From the sequence record OP172796.1: 64,000 bases of DNA, one strand, 5' to 3'. Below are positions 33,085 to 48,246 of this stretch, in pieces (the stretch's first letter is position 1; each line of letters opens with the position of its first letter). A model generated the notes under the pieces. It saw only the letters and a list, made by a program, of their open reading frames with translations, was not told where the DNA came from and ran no database searches. The translations under genes and the position numbers were made by a program. This DNA is from Escherichia phage EF202P1.

Positions 33085-34125
33085 ATGGAGAAGTATACGC
33101 TAACAAAACTTCCCGATTCAGTTACACATGTCTTTATTGACTCTGATAGTATTGCCTATAAAGGTGCTTGTGTAGTTGAGAAAGCAAAATATAAGTATGT
33201 CAATAAACTCACAGCAGAAGAATCTGAACCATTTGAGAATGCAAAAGATGCTGCAAGATGGTTAGCAGACCAGAGAATCCTTGTGGAAGAACTTGGCCTG
33301 ACATTTGATGAAGATGAATGGGAAAGACAGACTTGGAAAGAAGCTAAGAGTGAAAAAGAAGCTATCATGGCTACTCAGCAGGTTCTTCAGGAATGGCTTA
33401 AGGTTGTTGGTAAAGAAAGAACTTGGGTAGGTTACTTAACAGAGAAAGGTGTACATAAACATAAAGATATTAAAGGTCTTGAGCACCAATATCAAGGTAA
33501 CCGTAAAGAGGCTGTCACACCAACACACTTAGTTGCTTGTCGTGAATATCTTCTATCAAGACCAGAGTTCAAGCTCTTAAAGGGAGGCTTCGAAGCCGAT
33601 TCCATCGTAATTGCTAAAGCTGAAAAGATGGGTAAGAAGGCTGCTCTTATGAGTATTGACAAAGACCTTCGACAAGCTGAAGGGACTTATTGTATTGATA
33701 TGACTTATGAAAAGTCACCACTAATTTTTATTGCTGATAATAATGTTGGTGATATCTGGGATTGTCCTATCAAATCAAAACCAAAAGCTGCAAAAACTGT
33801 TGGTGTAGGTTTTAAATTTTTGTGTTATCAGGCTGTTGCTGGAGATAATGCAGACAACTACTTCGGCCTTAAAGGTGCTGGCAAAGTAGCTGTGATGAAT
33901 GCTTTAGATGGTAAAGAGACCTATAAAGAGTGTCTTGACGCTATCTATGAACTCTATGCTAAAAAAGAGTCTTACACCTATGTGTCATGGGATGGACAGA
34001 CTGTCACAAAGACACCATTAGAACTAATGGAACAGCATTTCTGGATAGCATATCAAGAGAGAAATCCAAAAGATAATTTCTCTTTTAAGAAATATAATTG
34101 GGAGCCGTGTATGAATGAAGATTAA
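33085..34125 (+). CDS. 5'-3' exonuclease / flap endonuclease
   Basis: N-terminal acidic catalytic cluster (FIDSDSIAY) and helix-hairpin-helix GDNADNYFGLKGAGKVA. Confidence 0.7.
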   Translation: MEKYTLTKLPDSVTHVFIDSDSIAYKGACVVEKAKYKYVNKLTAEESEPFENAKDAARWLADQRILVEELGLTFDEDEWERQTWKEAKSEKEAIMATQQVLQEWLKVVGKERTWVGYLTEKGVHKHKDIKGLEHQYQGNRKEAVTPTHLVACREYLLSRPEFKLLKGGFEADSIVIAKAEKMGKKAALMSIDKDLRQAEGTYCIDMTYEKSPLIFIADNNVGDIWDCPIKSKPKAAKTVGVGFKFLCYQAVAGDNADNYFGLKGAGKVAVMNALDGKETYKECLDAIYELYAKKESYTYVSWDGQTVTKTPLELMEQHFWIAYQERNPKDNFSFKKYNWEPCMNED

Positions 34126-34612
34126 AGGATTTGGCAATTGTCCCACCTATGGTCATTGGGTATCTTTATGTGGGGAAGTTGACCCCACTAAACATTTTGG
34201 TTTTGTCTATTTAGTACACTGTAAGAAAACCGGACAATACTATATTGGAAAGAAACAGCTTAATAGTGTGACCAAAAGAAAAGTTGCTGGTAAGACTCGG
34301 AAGAAGGTAGTCACTAAGGAAAGTGATTGGATGACTTATGAGACTTCTTCTGAGTATATTAAAAAAGATATTGAGAGTTTTGGAAAAGAGTTTTTTGACT
34401 TTTACATTATTCAAACCTACTACACAAAAGGTGGTCTAGTTTATGGTGAAGCAAACCTTCAACATAAATTTGATGTAATGACAAAAAGGATTGACTCTAA
34501 GCTCAGACTCTTCTACAATGCCAATATTGCAGCAATTAAGTTTATTACTAAAGAAACTTATGAAGATGCTGAAAAAAGAATCCATAAGGTAATGAAAGCA
34601 AACTGTGCTTGA
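34115..34612 (+). CDS. GIY-YIG family nuclease
   Basis: FGFVYLVHCKKTGQYYIGKK matches GIY-x10-YIG motif. Confidence 0.5.
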   Translation: MKIKGFGNCPTYGHWVSLCGEVDPTKHFGFVYLVHCKKTGQYYIGKKQLNSVTKRKVAGKTRKKVVTKESDWMTYETSSEYIKKDIESFGKEFFDFYIIQTYYTKGGLVYGEANLQHKFDVMTKRIDSKLRLFYNANIAAIKFITKETYEDAEKRIHKVMKANCA

Positions 34613-34633
34613 TAACTATTGAGAGAGAATAAA

Positions 34634-34864
34634 ATGTTTAACAAAAGTAAAGCTGTGGGTCATGTAGCAAAGGTTGACAGCAAGATTGAAGAACTTGAGC
34701 GCATTCTTGCAAATGCCAGAGAGTCAATAATTAAAGAAGTTGAAGCTGTTGAGTCTCAAATGCAGCACCTAATGCTTAAACGTCAAGAGTTACGTGAGCA
34801 TCTGGAATATATTGAAACACGAGAGCTAAAAGTTAACAGATTTTTAAGGAGTCCAAATGTTTAA
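34634..34864 (+). CDS. small coiled-coil protein
   Basis: ORF with GAGAGAGAA RBS. Confidence 0.3.
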   Translation: MFNKSKAVGHVAKVDSKIEELERILANARESIIKEVEAVESQMQHLMLKRQELREHLEYIETRELKVNRFLRSPNV

Positions 34865-35612
34865 CTCAAGAGAAGCAGTAAAAAACTGGAATCTTCGTTG
34901 TGGAAACACTCAAAAGCAACCTTACAGTGATGAGTATTGGGAATCTTTAAAATCCCAGTCTCTGTGTATGCTTGAAGAAGCAAAAGAGCTTGTAAAAGCA
35001 ATTGAAGAGAAAGACCCCATTGAGACACTGGATGCTCAGGCAGATTTGCAATATGTTCTTGATGGTCTGATTTATCTGTCACAACATGACCATAATGGTG
35101 CTATGAAAGCTGTTTGCCATAATAATGACCTGAAGTACACAGATGACTATGAAGAAGCTTTAAAGCGTCTTGCAGATGTTGAGAAGCGTACTGGTCAAGA
35201 GTGTATCATCAGAATGTCAGTGGTTGATGGTAAAGAGTGGTATGCGATTGTCCGTGCAGCCGATGGGAAGATTATGAAGCAATCAAATCTCCCTAAAGTA
35301 CAGCTTGGTGAATACATTGTAGAGCTTGAAAGCCAAGAACTTTTTGTGGTAGTATCTGAGACATGCGTTATCTGCAAAGGTATTGTAGATAGCTTAAAGG
35401 ATTTGGGTGTAGATGGTTTTGTAGAAGTTAATCCAATTACCTCTAAAGCAGATAAAGATTTCTGTAAAGAGAATGGACTATGGATTGCAGATATTGTCTA
35501 CTACGATGGTGAGCAGTTCCATGTAACCTCATACCCGAAACTGAATTATGATGCTAATAACCTGAAGTGCTGGTTAAAAGGGGTTGGTTATAATGGATTC
35601 ACAGAACATTAA
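34857..35612 (+). CDS. hypothetical protein, possible MazG-like NTP pyrophosphohydrolase N-domain plus CxxC C-domain
   Basis: EEAKELVKAIEEKDPIETLDAQADLQYVLDGL region is MazG-like; CVIC motif in C-terminal half; weak. Confidence 0.3.
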   Translation: MFNSREAVKNWNLRCGNTQKQPYSDEYWESLKSQSLCMLEEAKELVKAIEEKDPIETLDAQADLQYVLDGLIYLSQHDHNGAMKAVCHNNDLKYTDDYEEALKRLADVEKRTGQECIIRMSVVDGKEWYAIVRAADGKIMKQSNLPKVQLGEYIVELESQELFVVVSETCVICKGIVDSLKDLGVDGFVEVNPITSKADKDFCKENGLWIADIVYYDGEQFHVTSYPKLNYDANNLKCWLKGVGYNGFTEH

Positions 35613-35916
35613 TAAAGAAGGTGTGGCTCAGAAGAGCCACTTCTCAAACTACAATATCTCTATGACGGTGTTTATGAATGACCCGTTACTTGAGAAGTAT
35701 GGTGAGACTCCAGATACACTTCTGGATAATGAACAAGTTTTAAAAGCAGTCCTGTATAAATACGGGATTGATATTGAGAAAGAATATTCTTTTGAAATCT
35801 GCCAACACAGAAATACTTTTGGTAAAGTTGTGATGGCTCCACTCTTCATGGGTGTAGAAAGAACTGACTATGGTTGGTTATATCTAAAAAGAAACTTGGA
35901 GAAATACCGTGTCTAA
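35593..35916 (+). CDS. hypothetical protein
   Basis: ORF, no motif. Confidence 0.3.
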   Translation: MDSQNINKEGVAQKSHFSNYNISMTVFMNDPLLEKYGETPDTLLDNEQVLKAVLYKYGIDIEKEYSFEICQHRNTFGKVVMAPLFMGVERTDYGWLYLKRNLEKYRV

Positions 35917-36247
35917 AGCAAAAAAGCTATCTTATGATGACATTATCTCAGGTGCTAAGTTAGGTGTTGACAGTATCGGACAAGATGTTAAGCACGGAGA
36001 CACAGTTATGTACTGTGATGACCGAAGAGGGAGAAGTGCAATCTTGTTTGGAAGAATTGTTTGCAAGATGCGAGGTAATTACGTTGTTGCAGACATGGAT
36101 GTGAACGTTACACAAAAACTTGAAACAATTATAGATAATAATACATCATCATGGTTCTCCCTGAATTGTATGCACACTTCTTCAGTCACAAAGGTAAGTG
36201 ATAAGTTTTACGATATGTGGCAGAATGAGCAAATTTTCAAGATTTAA
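35909..36247 (+). CDS. hypothetical protein
   Basis: ORF followed by UUCG-loop terminator. Confidence 0.4.
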   Translation: MSKAKKLSYDDIISGAKLGVDSIGQDVKHGDTVMYCDDRRGRSAILFGRIVCKMRGNYVVADMDVNVTQKLETIIDNNTSSWFSLNCMHTSSVTKVSDKFYDMWQNEQIFKI

Positions 36248-36253
36248 ACTAGG

Positions 36254-36276
36254 GAGCCTCTTCGGAGGCTCTTTTC
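36254..36276 (+). terminator. intrinsic terminator upstream of nrdA
   Basis: GAGCCTC-TTCG-GAGGCTC then TTTT. Confidence 0.7.
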
Positions 36277-36293
36277 ATCTGTAGGACTTAAAA

Positions 36294-38528
36294 ATGATTA
36301 AGACAATTAAAAAATCAAACGGTACAGTAGTAAACTTTGACCCAGAAAGACTGAATAAGTGGGCATCATGGGCAGATAAGCGTGGAATTATCTGGTCAGA
36401 AGTTACTATGGAAGCCATGAAACGTGTCTATGAGGGTTGCACTACAAAAGAGATGCACCAAGCCATGATTGATGTTTGTGTTGATAAGCAAACTCAAGAG
36501 TACTCAGACATGGCTGGACGGCTACTTCTGGGGATTATCTACAAAGAAGCCTTTGGAGGCTTTACTAAGGTTCCTACGCTGGTTACCTTCGTTAAAAATA
36601 TGGAGAGAGCAGGACTTTGGGAGAAGATGGACTATTCTCAGGAAGAGCTTGAATACCTGCAAGGGTACATTGTGCACTCAAAAGATATCTCTTATGGTTA
36701 TGCAGTCCTGAAACAGTTCAGAGACAAGTATGGTATCCGTGATATTAAAACGGGAAGACTTTTTGAGTCACCACAATTTATGTTTATGGGTATGGCTATG
36801 AAAGCCTTCGAGAAGCAACCAAAGCACCGTAGACTGCAAGATGTTATCAAGCTGTACACTTACCTATCTGACCTGAAGATTAATGCTCCTACGCCTTATC
36901 TGAATGGTTTAAGAGCTACTAAATCAGGTTATGCGTCATGCTGTTTGATTAAGGCGAATGATACCGCTGAATCTCTCGGTATTGCTGCAAAGGTTGCTTA
37001 TGATATGACTACAAAGCAAGCTGGCATTGGGATGCTGATGGAGACTCGTACTATTGGTGATGGTATCCGTCAAAATACTATTGAGCACATGGGTAAACTG
37101 CCTTATTACAAGCTTGTACGTTCATCTGTAGAGGCAAACAAACAGAAGAGCCGTGGTGGTTCAGCTAACAACTTCTACACCGCTCTAGACCCGCAGATTG
37201 AAGATTTACTGCGTTTGAAGCACCCTACAACGGTTCCTTCGAAACGTATTAACGAGATGGACTACTCATTTGGTACAAATGATTATTTCTGGCAGTGTGT
37301 TCAATATGATACAGACTGGTTGCTATTCTCTTACAAGGATGCACCAAAGCTCTATGACATGTTCTACACAGCATCTGCTGATGAGTTTGCTATGGCAGTT
37401 GGTCATGCAGTACATTCAGGTGTTAAGCACAGACGGGTGAAGGCTCGTGAAATTGCTAAACTGTTTATCCAGCAGCGTTATGCAACAGGCCGTGTGTATC
37501 CATTCTTCACAAATAATGCAAACACACATACACCATTTAAAGAGCCTTTGAAGATGTCAAACCTTTGTATGGAAATTGTGTTGCCAGTGTACGGCTTTGA
37601 GAAAGAGACAGACCTTTACAGAGATGATGCTGTGAAAGAGGATGGTGAGGTAGCTCTTTGCTTCCTAGCTAGTTTGGTTGCAGGGAGAATTTCAGAAGAT
37701 GAATACGCTGACGTTGCTTATTATGCTCTTGCAATGGTTGACTCCGTTATTGACCTTATGGATTATCCGTATCCGTCGATGCGCAACCATGTTCAGAAGC
37801 GTCGTTCTGTTGGGATTGGCCTTACAAATGTGGCTCATTACCTTGCGAAAAACTACGTGAACTACTCTTCAAGAGCAGGCAAGACAAAGCTTCACGAACT
37901 TGCAGAGATGCACTCTTACTATCTGCATGAAGCTTCTCTAAGACTTGCTAAAGAGCGCGGTGTACCTGAATACATGAAGTTCACTAAGTATCCTGAAGGT
38001 TGGGTTCCTCCGAAGACAGCTAACAAGAAGATTGATGAGAAGCATGATGCAAAACTAAGATATGATTGGGATGACTTAGCACAACGTATTAAAGAAAATG
38101 GTGGAATCCGTAACTCTGTATTAGAAGCTTACATGCCTAATGAGAGTTCTTCACTGGCAACTAATACGACAAATGGCTTGTACCCAATTCGTGACTTTAT
38201 TTTAACTAAAAAGTCTGCAACTGGTAACGTACTGTTTATTGTTCCAGATTACGAAGAGTTGAAGTATGTCTATGAAATTGCTTGGGATATTGACACCTTT
38301 GACCTAATTGATTGCTATGCAATTGTTCAAAAGTTCACTGGTCAAGCTATCTCTTCAGATTTCTATGTTGACTACGCAAAAGCTAAGAAGGTATCATTGG
38401 CTCAAGCTTTGAAGTACATGATTTATGCCAACTCAGTAGGTATGAAAACCATGTACTACCTTAACAGTCGCATTGGTGTAGGTAAATCTGCACTGCAAGA
38501 TGCTTATTGCGAGGGTTGTGGTGTTTAG
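36294..38528 (+). CDS. nrdA: ribonucleoside-diphosphate reductase large subunit (class Ia)
   Basis: 744 aa, N-terminal ATP-cone-like region, followed by NrdB and glutaredoxin genes. Confidence 0.9.
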   Translation: MIKTIKKSNGTVVNFDPERLNKWASWADKRGIIWSEVTMEAMKRVYEGCTTKEMHQAMIDVCVDKQTQEYSDMAGRLLLGIIYKEAFGGFTKVPTLVTFVKNMERAGLWEKMDYSQEELEYLQGYIVHSKDISYGYAVLKQFRDKYGIRDIKTGRLFESPQFMFMGMAMKAFEKQPKHRRLQDVIKLYTYLSDLKINAPTPYLNGLRATKSGYASCCLIKANDTAESLGIAAKVAYDMTTKQAGIGMLMETRTIGDGIRQNTIEHMGKLPYYKLVRSSVEANKQKSRGGSANNFYTALDPQIEDLLRLKHPTTVPSKRINEMDYSFGTNDYFWQCVQYDTDWLLFSYKDAPKLYDMFYTASADEFAMAVGHAVHSGVKHRRVKAREIAKLFIQQRYATGRVYPFFTNNANTHTPFKEPLKMSNLCMEIVLPVYGFEKETDLYRDDAVKEDGEVALCFLASLVAGRISEDEYADVAYYALAMVDSVIDLMDYPYPSMRNHVQKRRSVGIGLTNVAHYLAKNYVNYSSRAGKTKLHELAEMHSYYLHEASLRLAKERGVPEYMKFTKYPEGWVPPKTANKKIDEKHDAKLRYDWDDLAQRIKENGGIRNSVLEAYMPNESSSLATNTTNGLYPIRDFILTKKSATGNVLFIVPDYEELKYVYEIAWDIDTFDLIDCYAIVQKFTGQAISSDFYVDYAKAKKVSLAQALKYMIYANSVGMKTMYYLNSRIGVGKSALQDAYCEGCGV

Positions 38529-38583
38529 TTTTAATAACTATGAGGGTCGTAAAAGACCCTCTAAAATTAACTTTGGAGAAACT

Positions 38584-38859
38584 ATGAAAGAACTCATTGA
38601 AGATGCAAAAAACAGGGAACCAAACTGTGCTTTGTATCTGTATTATACTCCAAGAGAGTCTTTATATTATATTGCAGATTATCACCTGAAAGTTAAAATG
38701 CCAGATGGTTCTTGGAAAGAACATCTTCGTTACATTGATTGCTTTAATCCAAGCAATACTTATGCAAGGTCTCTTGACATGTTTAAAGTTGACCGCTGGC
38801 AAGTTTTAACAGCGTCAGAAGCCAGAGAATTTTACGAAACAGGAAAATTACCAGAATGA
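38584..38859 (+). CDS. hypothetical protein between nrdA and nrdB
   Basis: 91 aa from ATG with GGAGAA RBS. Confidence 0.35.
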   Translation: MKELIEDAKNREPNCALYLYYTPRESLYYIADYHLKVKMPDGSWKEHLRYIDCFNPSNTYARSLDMFKVDRWQVLTASEAREFYETGKLPE

Positions 38860-39929
38860 TTAACCAACACCCAATCTTTTTAGGTGGTGAGAGAAAGACG
38901 TTTGACTCACTTAATAAACACTACCCAAAAATCTTTGAACTATATAAACAACAAAAAGCACAAGACTGGTCAGAAGATGAGTTCCCTTTTGAACAATCAC
39001 GTCTTGATTTTGAAAGTGTCCCAGCATCAATGTCAGGTGTAATGCTTGAGATTCTTAAGTGGCAGTGGGAAGCAGATACCCAAGTTGCTAAGAGTTTAGC
39101 GTTTGCCTTTGCACCATTCATCTCTGATGACATTTATGCAACTGCAATTATGAAGCAGTCTGAGATTGAAAACCTACATGCTCTTACTTACTCGGAGATT
39201 GTAAGACAATGTATTAAAAATCCTGAAACAATCTTAGATGAGATTAACCAGAACATTGCTGTACAAGACCGATTAAAAACTGTGAATCGTGTTCTTGAAG
39301 AATTACTGGATGAAGGTATAAACTATCGGCTGAGTTATGTTCGTGACTCACTTCTGGACAAAGACCCTTTACACTTCCATAAAGTGATTCTAAAAGGTCT
39401 ATTTGCAGTGACTGCACTTGAAGGTATCTCTTTTATGGCATCCTTTGCATGTACTTTTGCACTTGATGCTCAAGATAAATTTCAAGGTATTGCTCAAGCT
39501 GTACAGAAAATTATGCTTGACGAAATCCTTCACACTAAAATTGATATTGAAGTTTTAAAAGAAACTTTAAGAGATGATGAGTGGCAAAAAGCTTTCCAAC
39601 AAATTCTTCCAGAGATTAAAGTAATCTTAGATGAAGTAGTTGAAAGTGAAGAAAAATGGTCGTATTATATCTTCTCCGAAGGACGTGCTGTAGTTGGTTT
39701 AAATACAAAGCTTCTTCATGAGTGGGTTTACTATAATGCTGCCCCACTGTATGATATGTTTGGCATTCCCAGAGATTTTGTAGCTCCTAAAGAACCACCT
39801 TTGAAGTATATGATTAAGAAGATGGAAATTGATAAAGAGCAGAATGCTAATCAGGAGCAACAGAACGGTGCGTATTTATTGAATACTGTTGTCGATGATT
39901 TGAATAGTGGATTTTTAGAGGTTCCTTAA
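38856..39929 (+). CDS. nrdB: ribonucleoside-diphosphate reductase small subunit
   Basis: 357 aa, size and position after nrdA. Confidence 0.85.
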   Translation: MINQHPIFLGGERKTFDSLNKHYPKIFELYKQQKAQDWSEDEFPFEQSRLDFESVPASMSGVMLEILKWQWEADTQVAKSLAFAFAPFISDDIYATAIMKQSEIENLHALTYSEIVRQCIKNPETILDEINQNIAVQDRLKTVNRVLEELLDEGINYRLSYVRDSLLDKDPLHFHKVILKGLFAVTALEGISFMASFACTFALDAQDKFQGIAQAVQKIMLDEILHTKIDIEVLKETLRDDEWQKAFQQILPEIKVILDEVVESEEKWSYYIFSEGRAVVGLNTKLLHEWVYYNAAPLYDMFGIPRDFVAPKEPPLKYMIKKMEIDKEQNANQEQQNGAYLLNTVVDDLNSGFLEVP

Positions 39930-40171
39930 TGACTTATGTAATTTACTCCAAAACTGGATGCCCTCAGTGTGAGACTGCAAAGAATTTTGCAAAAGCTCGT
40001 GGTATTGACCATGTTGTGAGAATGTTAGGGCAGGATTATGAACTGTCAGACCTGATGGATATTGCACAGATGCCAGTTCGTCAGATGCCATTCATCATGA
40101 AAACTGATGGTCAAAATCTAAAACCTGTTGGAACGCTACAGAATTTTATGGCAGAGGTGAATAATGCTTAA
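39929..40171 (+). CDS. glutaredoxin (NrdH/Grx-like)
   Basis: CPQC active site in MTYVIYSKTGCPQCETAK. Confidence 0.75.
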   Translation: MTYVIYSKTGCPQCETAKNFAKARGIDHVVRMLGQDYELSDLMDIAQMPVRQMPFIMKTDGQNLKPVGTLQNFMAEVNNA

Positions 40172-40370
40172 ACGCCTTTGGGAAGGCTTGGTTGTTGATG
40201 CACCAGCCATTGTGATTGGTATGCTTATTGTTAACCTATTTACTGATTTTGAACAAGGTTCATTGTTTGGAGCCATGTTACTATGGGTTATCTTTGAAAT
40301 ATTAGAGATACAGCTAGGCATCACTGAAAAACTAAGAAAATTCGTTTCAAAGTTTTCTAAAAAGATTTAA
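40164..40370 (+). CDS. small membrane protein
   Basis: Two hydrophobic segments. Confidence 0.3.
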   Translation: MLKRLWEGLVVDAPAIVIGMLIVNLFTDFEQGSLFGAMLLWVIFEILEIQLGITEKLRKFVSKFSKKI

Positions 40371-40377
40371 AATGAAA

Positions 40378-40400
40378 GGGTCTCTTCGGAGACCTTTTTA
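40378..40400 (+). terminator. intrinsic terminator upstream of nrdD
   Basis: GGTCTC-TTCG-GAGACC then TTTTT. Confidence 0.7.
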
Positions 40401-40418
40401 GCATGTAAAGGGGCAATA

Positions 40419-42563
40419 ATGAACAAAGTACAGATTATTAAAAAGAATGGCTCACTTGAAGAACCTGATATCAAAAAAGTTTTAGCAGCAGTAACTAAGT
40501 CAGCTAACAGGGTTGGGTATAAAGAACTTCCCCCAGATGTTACCCAAGCTCTTGAGTCAGCATTTATGAGGATTCTGGTGAAGTCCACTAAGCAGAATAA
40601 TTTGCTCATCTCGGTAAATGACATTCACAGTATTGTTGAGGGTGCTTTGGCAGAAGTCAATCACGAGATTTATGAGTCTTACTCAACATACAGAAATTAC
40701 CGTAAAGAGGTTGCTCAAAATTGGGATGAGCTTTACCAAAAGACCAGAGACACACTCTTCTTAGGTGACCGTGAAAATGCTAACTTTGACAGCAGTTTAA
40801 TTTCTACAAAAGGTTCAATTATTCGTGGCTATCTGACTAAAGAAATCTTTAAACAATACCATTTAACACCAGAGGAACTCGAAGCCATTGAAAAAGGGTT
40901 TATCTACATCCATGACTTAAGAGACCTAATTTTTGGTGGTATCAACTGTTGCCTGTTTGACATCGGTAAAGTACTGAAAGGTGGCTTTGAAATGTCTGGT
41001 ATCGAATACTGTGAACCGAAATCTGTACTGTCATCCTTACAGGTTATCGGTGATGTAGTTCTTTCAGCAACTGCACAGCAATTTGGTGGTTTTACTTTAG
41101 CAGAGATTGATAAGGTGCTTGTACCGTATGCTAAGAAGTCTCTACGCTATCATGCTGAGAAAGCAGCATCTTACGGTATTCCTAAAGAACATTACCACAA
41201 TTATGTCATGGAGCAGCTACAGCTTGAATTAACTCAAGGCTTCCAGTCACTAGAGATGAAGCTAAATACTGTACCTTGTAGCCGTGGTGATTTCGCATTC
41301 ACAACTTTAACATTTGGTTTACTTGACTCAGATATGTCTAATGAAGACAACCGACTACAATACATGATTGCAAACACTATTCTTGATGTTCGCATGAATG
41401 GACAAGGTAAGAGCAAGAAGCCTGTTGTATTCCCTAAACTGGTTTATATTCATGACCAGAAGAGACACGATGAGAATATCTGTCAAGGTCAACTGTACAG
41501 TAAAGCTATTGAGTGTTGCTCTAAAGCAATGTATCCAGATTTCTTAAGCGTCTCTGGTCATGGTGCTGTAGCAGAAGCTTTTGAGCGTTCTGGCAAGGTA
41601 ATTTCACCGATGGGTTGCAGAGCCTTCTTATCTCCATATCTTAATGAGGATGGGGAAGAGTTCTATGTTGGTCGTGCTAACATTGGTGCTGTATCTTTGA
41701 ACTTGCCAATGATTTACCAGTATTCTAAAGAGAATGGTTTAGATTTCTGGAAAGAGCTTGATAAGTACCTAGAGATGATTCGCAGCTTCCACAAGAAACG
41801 CTACGAAATGATTGCTAATATGCCAGCAAGTTCTAACCCTCTTGCATTCACACAAGGTGGTCTGTACAAAGGGACTAAGAAACCTACTGACAAGGTTGGT
41901 TGGGATATCGTGAAGTCCTTCACAGCTTCTTTTGGGGTTACTGCTCTTGATGAGTTGTCTGTTCTTGCTGAAGGTAAACGACTTCATGAAGTTGGAAGCT
42001 ATAGTTTTGCATACGATGTTCTGGCATACATTAACATGAAAACTGAAGAGTTTAAGAACGAAGATGGCTTCTTGTATGCGGTATATGGCACTCCAGCAGA
42101 ATCACTTTGTGGAACTCAGTTAAAACAGTTCAGGGATATGTTTGGCGTTATTAAAGGTGTCTCTGACAAGGAATATTTTACAAACAGTTTCCATATGAAT
42201 GTTGCAGCAGATATCTCACCATTTGAGAAGCAGGACTTAGAAGAGCCATTCTTCCATATCTGTAGAGGCGGCAGAATCCAGTATGTGAGGGTAGCTAACC
42301 CAGAAAACTTACCAGCACTTAAAAGTTGTATTACAAGAGGGATGTTGAAGGGTTTTTATCAGGGACTTAACTTTGACTTAGCAACCTGCGAACATTGTGG
42401 CAACAGACCAAAGGCTGATGTTGAAGAATGTGAGGTTTGCCATTCACATGACATCTCTGTGATTAACAGAGTGTGTGGGTATCTTGGGTGGACTAAGATT
42501 AAAGGTGAATCCCGAATGAATGATGCAAAAATTGCTGAGATTCGTGACAGGGTTTCTATGTAA
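40419..42563 (+). CDS. nrdD: anaerobic ribonucleoside-triphosphate reductase (class III)
   Basis: 714 aa, C-terminal Cys cluster and glycyl-radical region (CEHCG...CEVC...RVCGYLG). Confidence 0.9.
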   Translation: MNKVQIIKKNGSLEEPDIKKVLAAVTKSANRVGYKELPPDVTQALESAFMRILVKSTKQNNLLISVNDIHSIVEGALAEVNHEIYESYSTYRNYRKEVAQNWDELYQKTRDTLFLGDRENANFDSSLISTKGSIIRGYLTKEIFKQYHLTPEELEAIEKGFIYIHDLRDLIFGGINCCLFDIGKVLKGGFEMSGIEYCEPKSVLSSLQVIGDVVLSATAQQFGGFTLAEIDKVLVPYAKKSLRYHAEKAASYGIPKEHYHNYVMEQLQLELTQGFQSLEMKLNTVPCSRGDFAFTTLTFGLLDSDMSNEDNRLQYMIANTILDVRMNGQGKSKKPVVFPKLVYIHDQKRHDENICQGQLYSKAIECCSKAMYPDFLSVSGHGAVAEAFERSGKVISPMGCRAFLSPYLNEDGEEFYVGRANIGAVSLNLPMIYQYSKENGLDFWKELDKYLEMIRSFHKKRYEMIANMPASSNPLAFTQGGLYKGTKKPTDKVGWDIVKSFTASFGVTALDELSVLAEGKRLHEVGSYSFAYDVLAYINMKTEEFKNEDGFLYAVYGTPAESLCGTQLKQFRDMFGVIKGVSDKEYFTNSFHMNVAADISPFEKQDLEEPFFHICRGGRIQYVRVANPENLPALKSCITRGMLKGFYQGLNFDLATCEHCGNRPKADVEECEVCHSHDISVINRVCGYLGWTKIKGESRMNDAKIAEIRDRVSM

Positions 42564-42572
42564 AACTTGACA

Positions 42573-42612
42573 AGGTGGTGTGGGTCTTGATAGGCTTACA
42601 TCACCTTTTTTA
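42573..42612 (+). terminator. candidate terminator after nrdD
   Basis: AGGTGGTG ... CATCACCT then TTTTTT (long loop). Confidence 0.4.
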
Positions 42613-42717
42613 TTGGATGTTAGATATGGCAGAGAGCATCATTGGCCTGTTCATAGGTTCTGTTTTACTAGGGTTCTTTTTAGGACTCTCTTATTGTGAG
42701 TTGAGAGATAAGTTAAA

Positions 42718-42918
42718 ATGTTTAAAATATCAAAAACATTGATATACATACTCCACATTCTAATCTTCTTCTTTGGGGTTAGTGTTATGGTATGGGGTTT
42801 TTCAGACCCACAATGGAGTTTTGCATATCATGGTCAGATGGATTTATGGTCATGCTTCAAACCATTTTTAGGGTTAGCTATAGCATTCAGTGCATTACCA
42901 ACTAAGGTGAAATTATGA
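42718..42918 (+). CDS. small membrane protein
   Basis: Hydrophobic 66-aa ORF. Confidence 0.3.
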   Translation: MFKISKTLIYILHILIFFFGVSVMVWGFSDPQWSFAYHGQMDLWSCFKPFLGLAIAFSALPTKVKL

Positions 42919-43310
42919 TTAAGCTCAACCAGAAACAGTTAGAGTGGATTAAAGATTATGCCTCAGAGTGTGGCTCTTGTGAGAAGAATCACGTAAGGTA
43001 CTCAACATTCCATACAGTTTTCACATTGTATATCAGTGACAACGTTCTAAGTGATTCTGTAGAAGATGGTGTAGCGTTGCCTAATGAATTGCTTGACAAA
43101 TTAGCTGTAGTCACTGGAACTTGGTCTGAAGAAGATGGTCATGAACTATCTGGTGATGTTGTCTTCTACACCCTTGAAAACATCATGAATCCAGAGTACA
43201 TTATGCTAATGACTTGTGCACAAGACTGTGTGCCACTACAGGACTTCATTAAAGAACACTGTGAAGAATTTATTACTAAACAGGTTCCTTGTCAGGTGGT
43301 GATTGAATGA
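42915..43310 (+). CDS. hypothetical protein
   Basis: ORF between nrdD and nrdG. Confidence 0.4.
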   Translation: MIKLNQKQLEWIKDYASECGSCEKNHVRYSTFHTVFTLYISDNVLSDSVEDGVALPNELLDKLAVVTGTWSEEDGHELSGDVVFYTLENIMNPEYIMLMTCAQDCVPLQDFIKEHCEEFITKQVPCQVVIE

Positions 43311-43345
43311 GTAAAACAATTAAATAATATTGGTGAGGTAACGAG

Positions 43346-43831
43346 ATGAATTACATGGAGATTCGACCATTTGACACAGCTAATGGTGAAGGGGTTCGGA
43401 TAAGCCTCTTCGTAGCTGGCTGTAAACATCACTGTGAAGGCTGCTTTAACAGGGAGTCTTGGAAGTTTAATGCTGGTAAAGAGTTTACTTATGCAAACCT
43501 CTACGGCATCATTAAATTAATGGATGATGAGGCCATCAGTGGGTTGTCAATACTTGGCGGAGAGCCTCTTGATGACAGAAACATTCAAGAAGTCACCAAC
43601 ATATGTAAACGTATTAAAACTGTTTACCCAGAAAAATCTATATGGCTTTGGACAGGTTTTCAGTTACACGAAAAAATCCACCTCGATGTGATGAAATATG
43701 TTGACGTGGTGATTGATGGTAAGTATGATTCTTCTAAACCAACAGTTAAACCTTATCGTGGCTCTGATAACCAAAACCTCTGGAGAAAAGAGTATGGGTG
43801 GCAAGGTGATTGTCAATGGCGAGCAGAGTAG
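43346..43831 (+). CDS. nrdG: anaerobic ribonucleotide reductase activating protein (radical SAM)
   Basis: CKHHCEGC (CxxxCxxC) radical-SAM cluster motif; 161 aa. Confidence 0.8.
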   Translation: MNYMEIRPFDTANGEGVRISLFVAGCKHHCEGCFNRESWKFNAGKEFTYANLYGIIKLMDDEAISGLSILGGEPLDDRNIQEVTNICKRIKTVYPEKSIWLWTGFQLHEKIHLDVMKYVDVVIDGKYDSSKPTVKPYRGSDNQNLWRKEYGWQGDCQWRAE

Positions 43832-44063
43832 TATAGCAGGGCTATACACATACAACAGTGAGTTATTAGATGAGTGGACTAAGTTTACATCTGATAACCA
43901 CGGGAAGGATGGTTTAGAATCTCTTGCTTGTATAGTTGGAGCAGGTGTATTTCTAGTCTTAGATGAAAAGTTTGGAGAGTACTACAAAACAAACCTCTTT
44001 TGTGGAATGTGGAGAGTCGGTATTACTCCAGAAGAGTTAATCAACTTCTGTATAAAAGTTTGA
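43794..44063 (+). CDS. hypothetical protein
   Basis: ORF overlapping nrdG 3' end; start uncertain. Confidence 0.25.
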   Translation: MGGKVIVNGEQSSIAGLYTYNSELLDEWTKFTSDNHGKDGLESLACIVGAGVFLVLDEKFGEYYKTNLFCGMWRVGITPEELINFCIKV

Positions 44064-44074
44064 GAGATAGTGAA

Positions 44075-44332
44075 ATGGGAATATGGAATAGTTTTAAATC
44101 AAAAGTAAAAGCAGCATTGGCATCATTAGGTATGCTCACTGGTGTTGATGTGACCCATCTTATGCAAAACTTCAAGATGGATGAGAATCTGGCTAATGAG
44201 ATTATGAAAAGCATCTACGTAGGTCGTGGTAAAGGTGGTAAGAAACAAGCACATCGACCAACTGGTGCAGCAGCAATTAAACGTGCAGCTAAAAAAGCTC
44301 GTAACCGTAAACGTAACAAGAAGGCTAAATAA
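44075..44332 (+). CDS. small protein with highly basic C-terminus
   Basis: C-terminus GRGKGGKKQAHRPTGAAAIKRAAKKARNRKRNKKAK. Confidence 0.35.
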   Translation: MGIWNSFKSKVKAALASLGMLTGVDVTHLMQNFKMDENLANEIMKSIYVGRGKGGKKQAHRPTGAAAIKRAAKKARNRKRNKKAK

Positions 44333-44334
44333 TC

Positions 44335-44646
44335 ATGAGCAAAGTTTATAACACTCGTAAAATTCAGATTTCTGTTCTGTGTCAGTTTATGGCTGATAAA
44401 CACAATTCACATTATTGTGGCACAGGTTTCCTTACTCTTGGTGGCGGTTACATTAGCTTCAAAGAGGCTGTAAAGATGTACAATGAGCACCCTGAAGATG
44501 ATAAAGAGCTGAAGCAGCTTAAACTCTCTTATGATAAGAAACGTAAGAAAATAATCTGCTTGAACAACCTTATCAAGCCAACTGAAAAGGTCTATGATGC
44601 AATTGGCGAAGAAGGTTTCTTCAAAGTATTGAAATTAGTTCAGTAA
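44335..44646 (+). CDS. hypothetical protein
   Basis: ORF followed by terminator. Confidence 0.4.
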   Translation: MSKVYNTRKIQISVLCQFMADKHNSHYCGTGFLTLGGGYISFKEAVKMYNEHPEDDKELKQLKLSYDKKRKKIICLNNLIKPTEKVYDAIGEEGFFKVLKLVQ

Positions 44647-44659
44647 GAATCTATGATTA

Positions 44660-44688
44660 GGGAACTGTAAAGGTTCCCTTTTTTATTT
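44660..44688 (+). terminator. intrinsic terminator
   Basis: GGGAAC-TGTAAAG-GTTCCC then TTTTTT. Confidence 0.7.
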
Positions 44689-44698
44689 TGGAGATAAT

Positions 44699-45214
44699 AT
44701 GTACCTGTCAAACCTGAAACGTTCGGCTGCAATGTCAGTGTTAAGGCTCAGCTTTGAGGAACGTCAAGAGTTCATTGACTCCCACCAATACGACCCTTCT
44801 AACTCAAATCACATGATTCTCTGGAATCGTGATAACTTCCGTGAAAGAGCACTTGTCCGTTATTACCCACACTACACAATAGATAACCTGTATGAATGGT
44901 GTGTTGTGAAGAACACTATTGCAACACTTAACAATCTTTGCAGGTATACAGGCAAGCAAACATTTACACTAGGTCACCACAAGCCTGTTACAAAAGGTGG
45001 TGAACATCACTGTGCAAACTGGTTTATCCAAACTAAAGCTGATAACCAGAAGCAAGGAGATAGACTCCTAAGCATCCCTAAGATGACCTATGAAGAGCAA
45101 GAGAAATATATCAAAAATAATATGCCAGATGTGCTTGACAACAACTATACAGATTTGGCAATATCTCTCCTGTTGAAGTTTGAGACAGTTTATAGGGCAA
45201 CTTACAATGGCTAA
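44699..45214 (+). CDS. HNH endonuclease
   Basis: HNH motif LGHHKPVTKGGEHHCANWFIQTKADNQKQGD. Confidence 0.7.
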   Translation: MYLSNLKRSAAMSVLRLSFEERQEFIDSHQYDPSNSNHMILWNRDNFRERALVRYYPHYTIDNLYEWCVVKNTIATLNNLCRYTGKQTFTLGHHKPVTKGGEHHCANWFIQTKADNQKQGDRLLSIPKMTYEEQEKYIKNNMPDVLDNNYTDLAISLLLKFETVYRATYNG

Positions 45215-45485
45215 AGCAGATTGGGAAATAAAAGACCTAATAAGTGATGCTGGAAATGGTTGTGAGATGTATATGATTCGTGGTCATGTACCAGACCCAT
45301 TAGCTCTTGAGATGATTGACCATCACACAAATGGATTCTACAAAGAACTAGGTGAACCAAATGTTGAACGCACTTGGACAAAACCAGTACCAGATAGCAC
45401 AGGCAACTGTTCAGTCCTCTATCACATTGTGAATCCACAAAAATGCAAAACAGCTATGGCTGTGACATTCGTAACTTTTGATTGA
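45207..45485 (+). CDS. hypothetical protein
   Basis: ORF overlapping HNH 3' end. Confidence 0.35.
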   Translation: MAKADWEIKDLISDAGNGCEMYMIRGHVPDPLALEMIDHHTNGFYKELGEPNVERTWTKPVPDSTGNCSVLYHIVNPQKCKTAMAVTFVTFD

Positions 45486-46379: not shown

Positions 46380-46388
46380 AACTTTATA

Positions 46389-46410
46389 GGGGGCTTTTAA
46401 GCCCCATTTT
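46389..46410 (+). terminator. hairpin/terminator between Prs-like and NAMPT-like genes
   Basis: GGGGCT-TTTA-AGCCCC then ATTTT. Confidence 0.55.
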
Positions 46411-46426
46411 GAGAGAGATTAAAAAG

Positions 46427-48208: not shown

Positions 48209-48222
48209 AAGTATATGATAAG

Positions 48223-48246
48223 AGGCTCCTACGGGAGCCTTTTTAA
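48223..48246 (+). terminator. intrinsic terminator after NAMPT-like gene
   Basis: AGGCTCC-TACG-GGAGCCT then TTTT. Confidence 0.7.

What the first reader, a model, noticed from the sequence alone, without database searches (positions are those of the whole stretch)
34115..45214. Two free-standing nuclease genes (GIY-YIG and HNH) inserted among replication and nucleotide-metabolism genes
The GIY-YIG ORF (34115..34612) overlaps the stop of the 5'-3' exonuclease gene, and the HNH ORF (44699..45214) sits directly upstream of the NAD+-related pair. Such nucleases are commonly mobile homing endonucleases or host-DNA-degrading enzymes (T4 endonuclease II is a small GIY-YIG protein); their placement marks likely insertion hotspots and could mediate exclusion of co-infecting relatives.
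Basis: partly seen in the sequence, partly recalled or inferred. Interest (0 to 1): 0.4.

Follow-up and report, generated by a model that had tools for sequence, protein, structure and literature searches.

The report
Two conserved, non-mobile phage nuclease genes
Both nuclease genes are real, but they are old, fixed genes shared by essentially all Felix O1-like phages rather than recent mobile insertions; the truly mobile nuclease genes of this phage group sit right beside them in relatives and are missing from this genome.

Summary
The window comes from a Felix O1-like myovirus (Felixounavirus). Both ORFs exist exactly as described.

**ORF A (34115-34612)** is a 165-aa, catalytic-domain-only GIY-YIG nuclease of the SegE/I-TevI lineage.

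**ORF B (44699-45214)** is a divergent HNH-type protein from a very small family.

Neither behaves like a mobile homing endonuclease:
- ORF A is present in all ~263 related genomes. It always overlaps the exonuclease stop codon, even in Erwinia phage phiEa21-4. dN/dS is 0-0.06.
- ORF B is present in ~97% of relatives, with dN/dS 0.07-0.10. It is the first gene of the unit carrying the NARP1 NAD+-reconstitution pair.

The mobile elements of this phage group are different genes, and the window has the empty allele at every site:
- HNH_3+AP2 genes at 34101/34102 (about one third of relatives).
- HNH_3+AP2 genes in the prs|nadV spacer (about one quarter).
- A group I intron in nrdD.

Published work on the relative SUSP1 shows no bulk host-DNA degradation and no fitness cost when either homolog is knocked down.

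Verdict: ordinary, already-catalogued genes. The "inserted/mobile" reading is largely refuted. The "insertion hotspot" idea holds only for neighbouring sites.

The parts
33085..34125 (+). 5'-3' exonuclease gene (346 aa). ORF A starts inside its last codons.
   Evidence: ORF list. phrog_107 'exonuclease', E=2.4e-63. Weak Pfam 5_3_exonuc hits. The SUSP1 homolog agp055 is 'Fit' in CRISPRi-ART.
34101..34102 (.). Empty insertion site for the sporadic ~490-nt HNH_3+AP2 homing endonuclease gene found in relatives. It lies inside the last 8 codons of the exonuclease gene, 13 nt before the ORF A start.
   Evidence: The alignment to vB_SflM_004 breaks at 34101. The exonuclease tail EPCMNED* of the window forms the C-terminus of the inserted HNH protein. 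The site is occupied in 18 of 55 sampled relatives. The inserted gene matches HNH_3 above the Pfam cutoff (32.8-70.5 bits, cutoff 24.8) and AP2 below it (17.8-19.5 bits, cutoff 33.3).
34115..34612 (+). ORF A: 165-aa catalytic-domain-only GIY-YIG nuclease (SegE_GIY-YIG family). It is widely mislabelled 'NAD synthetase'.
41616..41616 (.). Intron-less position in nrdD. Some relatives carry a ~315-nt group I intron here.
   Evidence: Insertion in SP2 SHa-2019 relative to the window. Rfam RF00028, 54.8 bits, in that relative. No Rfam hit anywhere in the window.
44659..44679 (+). Terminator-like hairpin followed by a T-run, directly upstream of ORF B. It separates ORF B from the DUF7390 gene.
   Evidence: Scan and sequence. 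A terminator is annotated at the same place in phage Moogle.
44699..45214 (+). ORF B: 171-aa divergent HNH-type (beta-beta-alpha-metal finger) protein of a very small family (phrog_3500). First gene of the unit that carries NARP1.
   Evidence: ORF list. phrog_3500 E=7e-93 and phrog_2214 'HNH endonuclease' E=2.4e-6. Conserved H93, G100, G101, N107, N116. Only 18 cluster representatives among 1.84 billion proteins. AlphaFold2 pLDDT 92.9 with a beta-beta-alpha element at 89-119.
45207..45485 (+). Small ORF (92 aa, phrog_4726, unknown function) between ORF B and the prs-like gene.
   Evidence: It is lost together with ORF B in GE_vB_7A and in the methylase-carrying relatives.
45498..46379 (+). [quoted passage not shown]
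   Evidence: Pfam Pribosyltran and Pribosyl_synth. The homologous two-gene operon was characterised in the Felixounavirus Bas63 (bioRxiv 10.1101/2024.02.11.579819).
46380..46408 (.). Empty spacer between the prs-like and nadV-like genes. It is the second insertion site of an HNH_3+AP2 homing endonuclease gene in relatives.
   Evidence: Occupied in Felix O1, Moogle and SUSP1, and in 11 of 43 sampled relatives.
46409..48208 (+). nadV-like gene, matching Namat of NARP1.
   Evidence: Pfam NAPRTase and NAMPT_N.
48220..48243 (+). Terminator-like hairpin that closes the ORF B-to-nadV unit.

Best explanation
Both ORFs are vertically inherited accessory nuclease genes of the Felix O1-like phages (subfamily Ounavirinae). 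They are not recently inserted mobile homing endonuclease genes.

**ORF A.**
- It encodes only the catalytic domain of a Seg/I-TevI-type GIY-YIG nuclease. The Tyr/Tyr/Glu/Asn active-site residues are intact, and a lysine/arginine-rich beta-hairpin (residues ~50-69) is inserted in the domain.
- It is co-transcribed with the 5'-3' exonuclease gene, and its start overlaps that gene's stop.
- My reading, which is inference: it is a domesticated Seg-type enzyme that makes limited nicks or breaks in DNA, which the exonuclease then resects.
- I rate a repair or recombination accessory role at about 0.4, and cutting the DNA of competing phages at about 0.25.
- Bulk host-DNA breakdown is unlikely, and an essential replication or packaging role looks unlikely, though the screen that says so admits false negatives.

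**ORF B.**
- It is a divergent HNH-type metal-finger protein that heads the transcription unit containing the NARP1 counter-defence pair (Adps-Namat).
- It is dispensable and is occasionally swapped for a DNA adenine methylase.
- Most likely it is an accessory nuclease used in phage-host or phage-phage conflict (inference).

**The real mobile elements.**
- The mobile nucleases of this lineage are HNH_3+AP2 genes and a group I intron.
- In relatives they occupy 34101/34102, the prs|nadV spacer and nrdD position 41616.
- The window has the empty allele at all three sites.
For: **Shown here.**
- The window is 93-96% identical to many Felixounavirus genomes.
- Organism counts for records holding ORF A equal those holding the whole 13.5-kb region: 119 Escherichia, 23 Shigella, 14 Felixounavirus, 11 Citrobacter, and so on. 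Each record has one copy. 261 records carry the exonuclease|ORF A junction in one place.
- The exonuclease-then-ORF A arrangement is the same in Moogle, SUSP1 and Erwinia phage phiEa21-4.
- ORF A versus wV8: 100% amino-acid identity at dS 0.17. dN/dS is 0.064 versus Felix O1 and 0.035 versus Moogle.
- ORF A is 62% identical to its phiEa21-4 homolog. That exceeds nrdA (57%), the exonuclease (55%) and nrdB (51%).
- ORF A fold and residues.
- ORF B: 254 records hold it. dN/dS is 0.07-0.10, and identities track the prs and nadV genes. Synteny holds out to phiEa21-4.
- ORF B is preceded by a terminator-like hairpin and a GGAG ribosome-binding site.

**Contrast with the true mobile genes.**
- The HNH_3+AP2 gene occupies 34101/34102 in 18 of 55 sampled relatives and the prs|nadV spacer in 11 of 43.
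- The vB_SflM_004 copy is 99.8% identical to the Moogle copy. Its flanks are 100% identical to the window but only ~80% identical to Moogle.
- The window has no homolog of this gene and no intron.

**Published experiments on relatives.**
- SUSP1 and SUSP2 leave plasmid and chromosomal DNA largely intact (PMC5241400).
- CRISPRi-ART in SUSP1 scores agp056 (ORF A homolog, 0.50, p=0.48) and agp073 (ORF B homolog) as 'Not Fit'. The exonuclease is 'Fit' (PMC11879866, supplementary file 16).
- The prs-nadV pair of Bas63 is NARP1.
Against: - No nuclease activity has been measured for either protein.
- The presence/absence counts come from summary tables and evenly spaced samples of 55 and 43 records, not from a complete matrix. 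The collections also contain duplicate records.
- A homing endonuclease that has reached fixation would look the same in a presence/absence survey.
- The CRISPRi-ART authors state that their screen has false negatives, so an essential role is not fully excluded.
- ORF B is absent, replaced or deleted in a few relatives, so it is less 'core' than ORF A.
- ORF B's assignment to HNH is below Pfam threshold and structurally non-significant.
- The specific repair or recombination role proposed for ORF A is inferred from conservation, gene position and negative evidence only.
Confidence: 0.75

Rival explanations
1. ORF A, ORF B or both are still active free-standing homing endonucleases. They have swept to fixation in the subfamily and now act in marker exclusion, cutting the DNA of co-infecting relatives that carry divergent target sequences so that the local genes of this phage are inherited preferentially.
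For: - ORF A belongs to the Pfam family named after the T4 homing endonuclease SegE, and its closest solved fold is I-TevI.
- Many depositors annotate it as 'GIY-YIG homing endonuclease'.
- Both genes are dispensable in the laboratory, as seg and mob genes are.
- The 3' end of the exonuclease gene next to ORF A is unusually polymorphic, dropping to 74-77% identity versus Felix O1 against a ~95% background.
- ORF B is flanked by two hypervariable small genes.
Against: - No ORF A-less relative was seen among ~263 records or in distant genera.
- There is no appended DNA-binding domain. ORF A is 165 aa with one Pfam domain, and most family members are 130-170 aa.
- Conservation is very strong (dN/dS 0-0.06). 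ORF A is better conserved than ribonucleotide reductase at long range, which is unlike fast-evolving selfish nucleases.
- The polymorphic patch beside ORF A is explained more simply by the HNH_3+AP2 gene that inserts exactly there.
Confidence: 0.17
2. ORF A is the functional counterpart of T4 endonuclease II (DenA) or T7 endonuclease I. It would nick host DNA so that the adjacent exonuclease can degrade it to nucleotides for the phage's reductase-rich salvage pathway.
For: - ORF A is a small GIY-YIG protein without a targeting domain, like DenA.
- It sits in a nucleotide-metabolism and replication cluster, next to an exonuclease gene.
- T4 denA likewise sits beside nrdB.
- Cyanophage homologs lie near nrdA and nrdB.
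Against: - SUSP1 and SUSP2 carry ORF A, yet they release intact plasmids. SUSP2 lysates contain more than 30-fold more host rpoS copies than T4 lysates (PMC5241400).
- Knockdown of the homolog has no fitness effect.
Confidence: 0.05
3. ORF B is not a DNA homing nuclease. It is an accessory enzyme of the NAD+ reconstitution module, analogous to the Macro-domain phosphatase Adpp or the glycosidase RyDEP that extend NARP1 in other phages. It might, for example, cleave a phosphodiester in an NAD-derived product or immune signal.
For: - ORF B is the first gene of the ORF B-orf92-Adps-Namat unit, which is bounded by terminator-like hairpins.
- Family members lie next to Adps and Namat in three different gene orders:
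  - upstream in Ounavirinae-like contigs;
  - immediately downstream of the NAPRTase gene in another contig;
  - 4-5 genes from an NAMPT gene in T4-like contigs, one of which also encodes an NMNAT-Nudix protein.
- There is precedent for extra genes in NARP1 operons.
- The slot is taken by an anti-restriction-type methylase in five relatives.
Against: - One homolog (43% identical) lies beside a UvrD-like helicase gene with no NAMPT gene within 8 kb.
- Most of the adjacency cases share ancestry, so they are not independent observations.
- The conserved motif is that of DNA/RNA-cutting HNH enzymes, and the best fold hits are Cas9 HNH domains and the Gme nicking endonuclease.
- The papers that define NARP1 describe a two-gene operon and do not mention this gene.
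Confidence: 0.15

Closest known systems
T4 Seg-type free-standing GIY-YIG homing endonucleases (SegE; Pfam PF19835) and the I-TevI catalytic domain
   Same: - ORF A matches the SegE_GIY-YIG domain at 97 bits.
- It keeps the GIY/YIG tyrosines, the Glu and the Asn.
   Different: - ORF A has no C-terminal DNA-binding module. A few relatives in the family do have NUMOD3.
- It is universal and syntenic rather than sporadic.
- It is under very strong purifying selection.
- Mobility criteria were tested and not met.
T4 endonuclease II (DenA)
   Same: A small GIY-YIG protein without a targeting domain, encoded among nucleotide-metabolism genes.
   Different: - No detectable profile similarity, and a weaker fold match than I-TevI.
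- Relatives that carry ORF A do not degrade host DNA.
HNH_3+AP2 free-standing homing endonucleases of Felix O1-like phages (Felix O1 ORF106 and ORF128, wV8 gp113)
   Same: They are nuclease genes in the same neighbourhood. One inserts 13 nt upstream of the ORF A start, the other between the prs and nadV genes.
   Different: - They are sporadic, occupying roughly 26-33% of sampled relatives.
- They move between genera.
- They match HNH_3 above the Pfam cutoff, with a sub-threshold AP2 DNA-binding-domain match.
- ORF B shows no profile similarity to them.
- The window has none.
Classical HNH nucleases (Pfam PF01844 type: Cas9/IscB HNH domains, Gme HNH nicking endonuclease 4H9D)
   Same: - ORF B has the H...N...N motif on a predicted beta-beta-alpha element.
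- Its family profile reaches a bona fide HNH protein at E=3e-5.
- The top Foldseek hits are almost all HNH domains.
- There is a weak match to the IscB HNH region.
   Different: - Below Pfam threshold.
- No zinc-binding cysteines, and no Asp before the catalytic His.
- Embedded in a helical bundle with no solved counterpart.
- No structural hit is significant.
NARP1 operons with accessory genes (Adpp Macro phosphatase; RyDEP)
   Same: ORF B lies in the same transcription unit as Adps and Namat, as those accessory genes do.
   Different: The fold is unrelated, no biochemical link has been shown, and one homolog is not next to NAD genes.

Membership tests
GIY-YIG nuclease superfamily, SegE_GIY-YIG (PF19835) - ORF A | Profile match above the curated threshold | tested here: met
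   97.4 bits against a cutoff of 25, E=9.4e-28, residues 21-138.
GIY-YIG nuclease superfamily, SegE_GIY-YIG (PF19835) - ORF A | Catalytic residues: Tyr of 'GIY', Tyr and Gly of 'YIG', catalytic Glu, metal-site Asn, and a conserved Arg | tested here: met
   Y32, Y43, G45, E112 and N135 are invariant in 59 homologs. The Arg equivalent is ambiguous: K47 is invariant, and R62 is nearly invariant among the 12 closest homologs.
GIY-YIG nuclease superfamily, SegE_GIY-YIG (PF19835) - ORF A | GIY-YIG alpha/beta fold | tested here: met
GIY-YIG nuclease superfamily, SegE_GIY-YIG (PF19835) - ORF A | Mg2+-dependent DNA cleavage | not testable with these tools
   Needs purified protein.
Free-standing homing endonuclease gene (mobile) - ORF A | Sporadic presence/absence among close relatives at one site | tested here: not met
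   Present in every related record and genus examined, always directly after the exonuclease gene.
Free-standing homing endonuclease gene (mobile) - ORF A | Separate DNA-binding domain giving long-target recognition | tested here: not met
   165 aa with a single Pfam domain. The model shows only the catalytic core, a basic hairpin and one C-terminal helix.
Free-standing homing endonuclease gene (mobile) - ORF A | Sequence history different from that of the flanking genes (horizontal transfer) | tested here: not met
   Identity to Felix O1, Moogle and phiEa21-4 follows that of the neighbours. The contrast is the HNH_3 gene of vB_SflM_004.
Free-standing homing endonuclease gene (mobile) - ORF A | Cleaves the endonuclease-less allele and is copied into it | not testable with these tools
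   No endonuclease-less allele was found. The test needs crosses or cleavage assays.
T4 endonuclease II-type host-DNA-degrading nuclease - ORF A | Homology to DenA | tested here: not met
   hhalign probability 0.3%.
T4 endonuclease II-type host-DNA-degrading nuclease - ORF A | Host DNA is degraded during infection | not tested
   Not tested for this phage. The literature on relatives SUSP1 and SUSP2, which carry the gene, reports intact plasmid and chromosomal DNA.
HNH / His-Me finger nucleases - ORF B | Profile match to an HNH family above threshold | tested here: not met
   - No Pfam HNH hit for ORF B.
- Two family members reach only 14.7-14.8 bits against a cutoff of 21.4.
- phrog_2214 'HNH endonuclease' E=2.4e-6.
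- IscB E=0.024.
HNH / His-Me finger nucleases - ORF B | Conserved His...Asn...Asn/His on a beta-beta-alpha element | tested here: met
   H93, N107 and N116 (with G100 and G101) are conserved in 20 homologs. Strands 89-93 and 108-112 and helix 113-119 appear in the model.
HNH / His-Me finger nucleases - ORF B | Detectable homology to an undoubted HNH protein | tested here: met
   The family profile hits P0157 at E=3e-5 in a search of 1.84 billion proteins. P0157 scores 45 bits on Pfam HNH and 48.6 bits on HNH_5.
HNH / His-Me finger nucleases - ORF B | Structural similarity to solved HNH domains | tested here: inconclusive
Free-standing HNH homing endonuclease gene (mobile) - ORF B | Sporadic distribution, plus kinship to the HNH_3+AP2 genes that are mobile in this lineage | tested here: not met
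   Present in ~254 of 263 relatives at one position. hhalign against the HNH_3+AP2 genes gives probability 0.05%. dN/dS is 0.07-0.10.
NARP1-associated accessory gene - ORF B | Conserved placement in or beside Adps-Namat operons across lineages | tested here: inconclusive
   Adjacent in three gene orders, but not in a 151-kb contig.
NARP1-associated accessory gene - ORF B | Acts on an NAD-derived metabolite or improves counter-defence | not testable with these tools
   Needs genetics and biochemistry.

The most novel reading that the evidence does not exclude
ORF B could define a small HNH-fold family that is a functional accessory of phage NAD+ reconstitution modules (NARP1 and NARP2). It would extend those counter-defence pathways the way the Adpp phosphatase and the RyDEP glycosidase do, rather than acting as a DNA homing nuclease.

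Separately, ORF A-type domain-only GIY-YIG proteins are mislabelled 'NAD synthetase' in hundreds of Ounavirinae and cyanomyovirus genomes. They could represent an unrecognised, widely conserved phage DNA-repair or recombination nuclease.
Probability: 0.15. Interest if true: 0.6.

Novelty: already known. Interest (0 to 1): 0.25.

Why it matters
- **Annotation.** ORF A-type proteins are labelled 'NAD synthetase', 'GIY-YIG homing endonuclease' or 'HNH homing endonuclease' in different records. None of the mobility criteria is met, and the NAD label has no basis in the domain content.
- **Comparative genomics.** The three sites where mobile elements come and go (34101/34102, nrdD 41616 and the prs|nadV spacer) explain local drops in identity between Felix O1-like genomes. 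Phylogenies should avoid these patches.
- **The 'superspreader' claim.** Published work says Felix O1-like phages encode no hydrolytic endonucleases. That needs qualifying: they encode an apparently intact GIY-YIG nuclease and an HNH-like protein, which evidently do not destroy host DNA.
- **A possible lead.** If ORF B turns out to be functionally tied to NARP1, it would add a component to a recently discovered counter-defence pathway.

Tried and rejected
- **Sequence searches of both proteins, and of the ORF A profile, against solved structures** found nothing meaningful.
- **The AlphaFold-database Foldseek library** was unavailable.
- **ORF A profile versus T4 DenA:** no similarity. Against a single I-TevI sequence there was only a weak, motif-level alignment, E=0.044.
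- **ORF B profile versus the HNH_3+AP2 genes:** no similarity.
- **NCBIfam and PADLOC:** no usable hits for ORF A, ORF B or their small neighbours.
- **Literature search for 'NAD synthetase' + GIY-YIG + phage:** nothing.
- **Co-conversion-like divergence next to the prs|nadV site in Felix O1:** the divergent patch lies in the 5' two-thirds of the prs gene, not next to the insertion, so I make no such claim there.
- **The idea that the 285-aa acidic-tailed protein (32165-33022) is a T7 gp2.5-like single-strand-binding protein, which would make ORF A fill a 'T7 endonuclease I slot':** PHROGs gives only an unknown-function family, so I dropped the argument.
- **Early scripts** failed because several loci are stored per file. 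This was resolved.

Full report
**What the window is.** The 13.5 kb around the finding is 93-96% identical to more than 200 Escherichia, Salmonella and Shigella phages of the genus Felixounavirus (Felix O1 and wV8 relatives). In all, 263 records match. The closest relative, HMD-P10, is colinear with the window at an offset of about 1.4 kb. On the + strand, the gene order from 29.7 to 48.2 kb is:
- primase/helicase;
- a 285-aa protein of unknown function;
- the 5'-3' exonuclease;
- ORF A;
- a MazG-like pyrophosphatase;
- nrdA, nrdB and glutaredoxin;
- nrdD and nrdG;
- several small ORFs;
- ORF B;
- a 92-aa ORF;
- a prs-like gene and a nadV-like gene.

**Observation check.**
- ORF A (34115-34612, 165 aa) starts 11 nt before the exonuclease stop codon at 34125.
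- ORF B (44699-45214, 171 aa) is separated from the prs-like gene only by a 92-aa ORF.

The only qualification is that the HNH label for ORF B has no Pfam support.

**What ORF A is.**
- It matches Pfam SegE_GIY-YIG at 97 bits.
- It also matches PHROG 447, whose label 'NAD synthetase' is a misnomer that has spread to hundreds of records.
- In an alignment of 59 homologs, H14, W15, G29, F30, Y32, Y43, G45, K47, W72, Y75, S78, F96, E112, Y134 and N135 are invariant. This set includes the GIY and YIG tyrosines, the catalytic Glu and the metal-site Asn.
- The protein is the catalytic domain alone, plus a lysine/arginine-rich beta-hairpin (about residues 50-69) and one C-terminal helix.
- Most family members are likewise 130-170 aa. 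Only a few carry a NUMOD3 DNA-binding motif.

**ORF A is not a mobile insertion.**
- The per-organism counts of records containing ORF A equal those containing the whole region, with one copy per record.
- 261 records carry the exonuclease|ORF A junction in one place.
- The same exonuclease-then-ORF A arrangement is found in other genera: Mooglevirus, Suspvirus and Kolesnikvirus. In the Kolesnikvirus Erwinia phage phiEa21-4 the two genes again overlap.
- Nei-Gojobori estimates:
  - 100% amino-acid identity to wV8 at dS 0.17;
  - dN/dS 0.064 versus Felix O1;
  - dN/dS 0.035 versus Moogle.
- Against phiEa21-4, ORF A is 62% identical. After the primase/helicase it is the best-conserved protein of the module, ahead of nrdA (57%), the exonuclease (55%) and nrdB (51%).
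- tblastn finds the family as a single-copy gene in about 400 cyanomyovirus records, again labelled 'NAD synthetase'.

**What is mobile here.**
- *Site 1, 34101/34102.* vB_SflM_004 carries a 489-nt insertion at this position.
  - The insertion brings a new exonuclease tail (TPNVDSADT*) and an HNH gene.
  - That gene reads into the original last codons of the exonuclease gene, so EPCMNED* becomes the C-terminus of the HNH protein.
  - The inserted genes match Pfam HNH_3 above threshold, with a sub-threshold AP2 match.
  - In an evenly spaced sample, 18 of 55 relatives have the site occupied. These include Felix O1 ORF106 and wV8 gp113.
  - The vB_SflM_004 copy is 99.8% identical to the Moogle copy. 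Its flanks are 100% identical to the window and only ~80% identical to Moogle. This indicates a recent transfer between genera.
  - Against Felix O1, identity drops to 74-77% in the ~600 nt around the site, from a ~95% background.
- *Site 2, the prs|nadV spacer (46380-46408).* A second HNH_3+AP2 gene occupies it in 11 of 43 sampled relatives.
- *Site 3, nrdD position 41616.* Some relatives carry a group I intron here.
- *A further site.* SUSP1 has another homing endonuclease gene just after nrdD.
- The window has no homolog of these HNH genes and no Rfam hit at all. It carries the empty allele at every one of these sites.

**What ORF B is.**
- It belongs to PHROG 3500 (unknown function), with weak hits to HNH PHROGs.
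- An exhaustive profile search of 1.84 billion representative proteins found only 18 relatives.
- The motif FTLGH-x2-P-x3-GG-x-H-x3-NW-x-IQ-x4-N is conserved (H93, G100, G101, N107, N116).
- In a confident model (pLDDT 92.9) it falls on strand 89-93, strand 108-112 and helix 113-119, which is the HNH beta-beta-alpha topology.
- One of the 18 hits (E=3e-5) is an undoubted HNH protein.
- I therefore treat ORF B as a divergent HNH-type protein, with membership only partly demonstrated.
- It is unrelated to the mobile HNH_3+AP2 genes.

**ORF B distribution and context.**
- It is present in 254 records, 240 of them at 80% coverage or more.
- dN/dS is 0.07-0.10. Identities are 95-96% within the genus, 78% to Moogle and 44% to phiEa21-4, which parallels the prs and nadV genes.
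- It is replaced, together with the 92-aa ORF, by a DNA adenine methylase in five relatives. It is cleanly deleted in one unverified record.
- A terminator-like hairpin (44659-44679) and a GGAG ribosome-binding site precede it. The next terminator-like hairpin follows the nadV-like gene. Moogle's annotation has a terminator at the same upstream spot.
- The prs-nadV pair of the Felixounavirus Bas63 has been shown experimentally to be NARP1. In that pathway Adps and Namat rebuild NAD+ from ADP-ribose and nicotinamide to defeat NAD+-depleting defences (bioRxiv 10.1101/2024.02.11.579819).
- Distant ORF B homologs lie:
  - upstream of Adps and Namat;
  - directly downstream of the NAPRTase gene;
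  - a few genes from an NAMPT gene in T4-like contigs;
  - in one case, next to a UvrD-like helicase gene with no NAD gene nearby.

**Experimental evidence from relatives.**
- Keen et al. showed that SUSP1 and SUSP2 release intact plasmids and leave far more host chromosomal DNA than T4 (PMC5241400). SUSP1 encodes both ORF A (agp056) and ORF B (agp073).
- In the genome-wide CRISPRi-ART screen of SUSP1, agp056 (0.50, p=0.48) and agp073 (-0.29, p=0.75) are 'Not Fit'.
- In the same screen the exonuclease (agp055) and the 285-aa protein (agp054) are 'Fit' (PMC11879866, supplementary file 16).
- The authors note that the screen has false negatives.

**How it most likely works.**
- *Shown:* both genes are conserved, syntenic, selectively constrained, single-copy and dispensable in laboratory culture. 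ORF A has a complete GIY-YIG active site. Relatives do not degrade host DNA in bulk.
- *Inferred for ORF A:* it is a domesticated Seg-type nuclease that introduces limited nicks or breaks, which the co-expressed exonuclease processes.
  - I rate a repair/recombination-type accessory function at about 0.4. It fits three facts: very high conservation, dispensability in rich medium, and universality in sunlit-ocean cyanophages.
  - I rate anti-competitor cutting at about 0.25.
  - I rate bulk host-DNA degradation at about 0.05.
- *Inferred for ORF B:* it is an accessory HNH-type enzyme in a counter-defence neighbourhood. A direct role in the NAD+ module is the most novel reading that the evidence does not exclude, at about 0.15.

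**Comparison, novelty and verdict.**
- ORF A is a member of the GIY-YIG/SegE domain family. It fails every tested criterion for a mobile homing endonuclease gene, and it is not a DenA homolog.
- ORF B resembles classical HNH nucleases at the level of motif, remote profile link and fold hints.
- Identical or near-identical proteins are already deposited in hundreds of genomes, so the genes themselves are already known. Their functions are not.
- The 'inserted/mobile' interpretation is largely refuted.
- The 'insertion hotspot' idea survives only for the adjacent sites, which are empty in this genome.
- Interest is low to moderate (0.25).

Noticed in passing
window 34101-34102: Precise empty site for a ~490-nt HNH_3+AP2 homing endonuclease gene. 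In occupied relatives the insertion supplies a new exonuclease C-terminus (TPNVDSADT*), and the HNH ORF reads into the original exonuclease tail (EPCMNED*). vB_SflM_004 differs from the window at this locus essentially only by the insertion, which is 99.8% identical to the Citrobacter phage Moogle copy.
   Followed up: yes
window 45498-48208: The prs-like/nadV-like pair corresponds to NARP1 (Adps-Namat), the NAD+ reconstitution counter-defence pathway shown experimentally in the Felixounavirus Bas63. The usual 'ribose-phosphate pyrophosphokinase / nicotinamide phosphoribosyltransferase' labels are probably functionally wrong. The 29-nt spacer (46380-46408) is an HNH gene insertion site in about a quarter of relatives.
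   Followed up: partly
window 41616 (inside nrdD, 40419-42563): Relatives such as Salmonella phage SP2 SHa-2019 carry a ~315-nt ORF-less group I intron here (Rfam RF00028, 54.8 bits). The window's nrdD is uninterrupted. This explains the 'split nrdD' annotations in several deposited genomes.
   Followed up: partly
window 44335-44646: The DUF7390 gene just upstream of ORF B is only 53-54% identical in protein to the Felix O1 and wV8 alleles, but 88% identical to the allele of the other-genus phage Moogle, so it looks like a mosaic allele exchange. It carries a legacy 'putative HNH endonuclease' label in several records, with no Pfam support. A metagenomic protein (P0015, 259 aa) fuses DUF7390 to ORF B.
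   Followed up: partly
window 38500-38859 and 45207-45485: Two more small genes show allele replacement: orf119, between nrdA and nrdB, is 50-52% identical to wV8 and Felix O1 but 64% to Moogle; the 92-aa ORF after ORF B is 72% identical to wV8 and Felix O1. Their neighbours are 95-99% identical. ORF B sits as a conserved island between two variable genes.
   Followed up: no
window 44735-45452 and 44819-45372: The ORF B + 92-aa ORF cassette is cleanly deleted in the (unverified) record GE_vB_7A. It is replaced by a DNA adenine methyltransferase (frameshifted as deposited in SP2 SHa-2019) in SP2/SP4 SHa-2019, SEP1, S19cd and GEP101.
   Followed up: partly
window 34115-34612 and homologs (for example L008 3926-4387, L009 3929-4366): The 'NAD synthetase' name attached to this GIY-YIG family (phrog_447, cyanophage gene cluster T4-GC 213) appears in hundreds of Ounavirinae and cyanomyovirus records. 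It has no support from domain content. The family looks like a near-universal single-copy gene of cyanomyoviruses.
   Followed up: partly
window 32165-33022: A 285-aa protein of unknown function (phrog_3877) with a strongly acidic C-terminal tail lies between the primase/helicase and the exonuclease genes. Its SUSP1 homolog agp054 is among the strongest 'Fit' genes in the CRISPRi-ART screen. It might be a single-strand DNA-binding protein, but nothing tested supports that.
   Followed up: partly
relatives: L004 11777-12076 (wV8 gp129); L025 10558-11121 (SUSP1 agp067): Further presence/absence differences fall inside the span of the finding. wV8 has an extra 300-nt ORF between the orf131 homolog and nrdG (window ~43315-43321). 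SUSP1 has a 'homing endonuclease' gene directly after nrdD, where the window has two small membrane-protein ORFs (42575-42918).
   Followed up: no
literature versus window 34115-34612 and 44699-45214: The 'superspreader' paper states that SUSP1, SUSP2 and Felix O1 encode no homologs of known hydrolytic endonucleases. Yet SUSP1 encodes the intact GIY-YIG ORF A homolog, the HNH-like ORF B homolog and two annotated homing endonuclease genes, one HNH-type. The phenotype therefore occurs despite these nucleases.
   Followed up: partly
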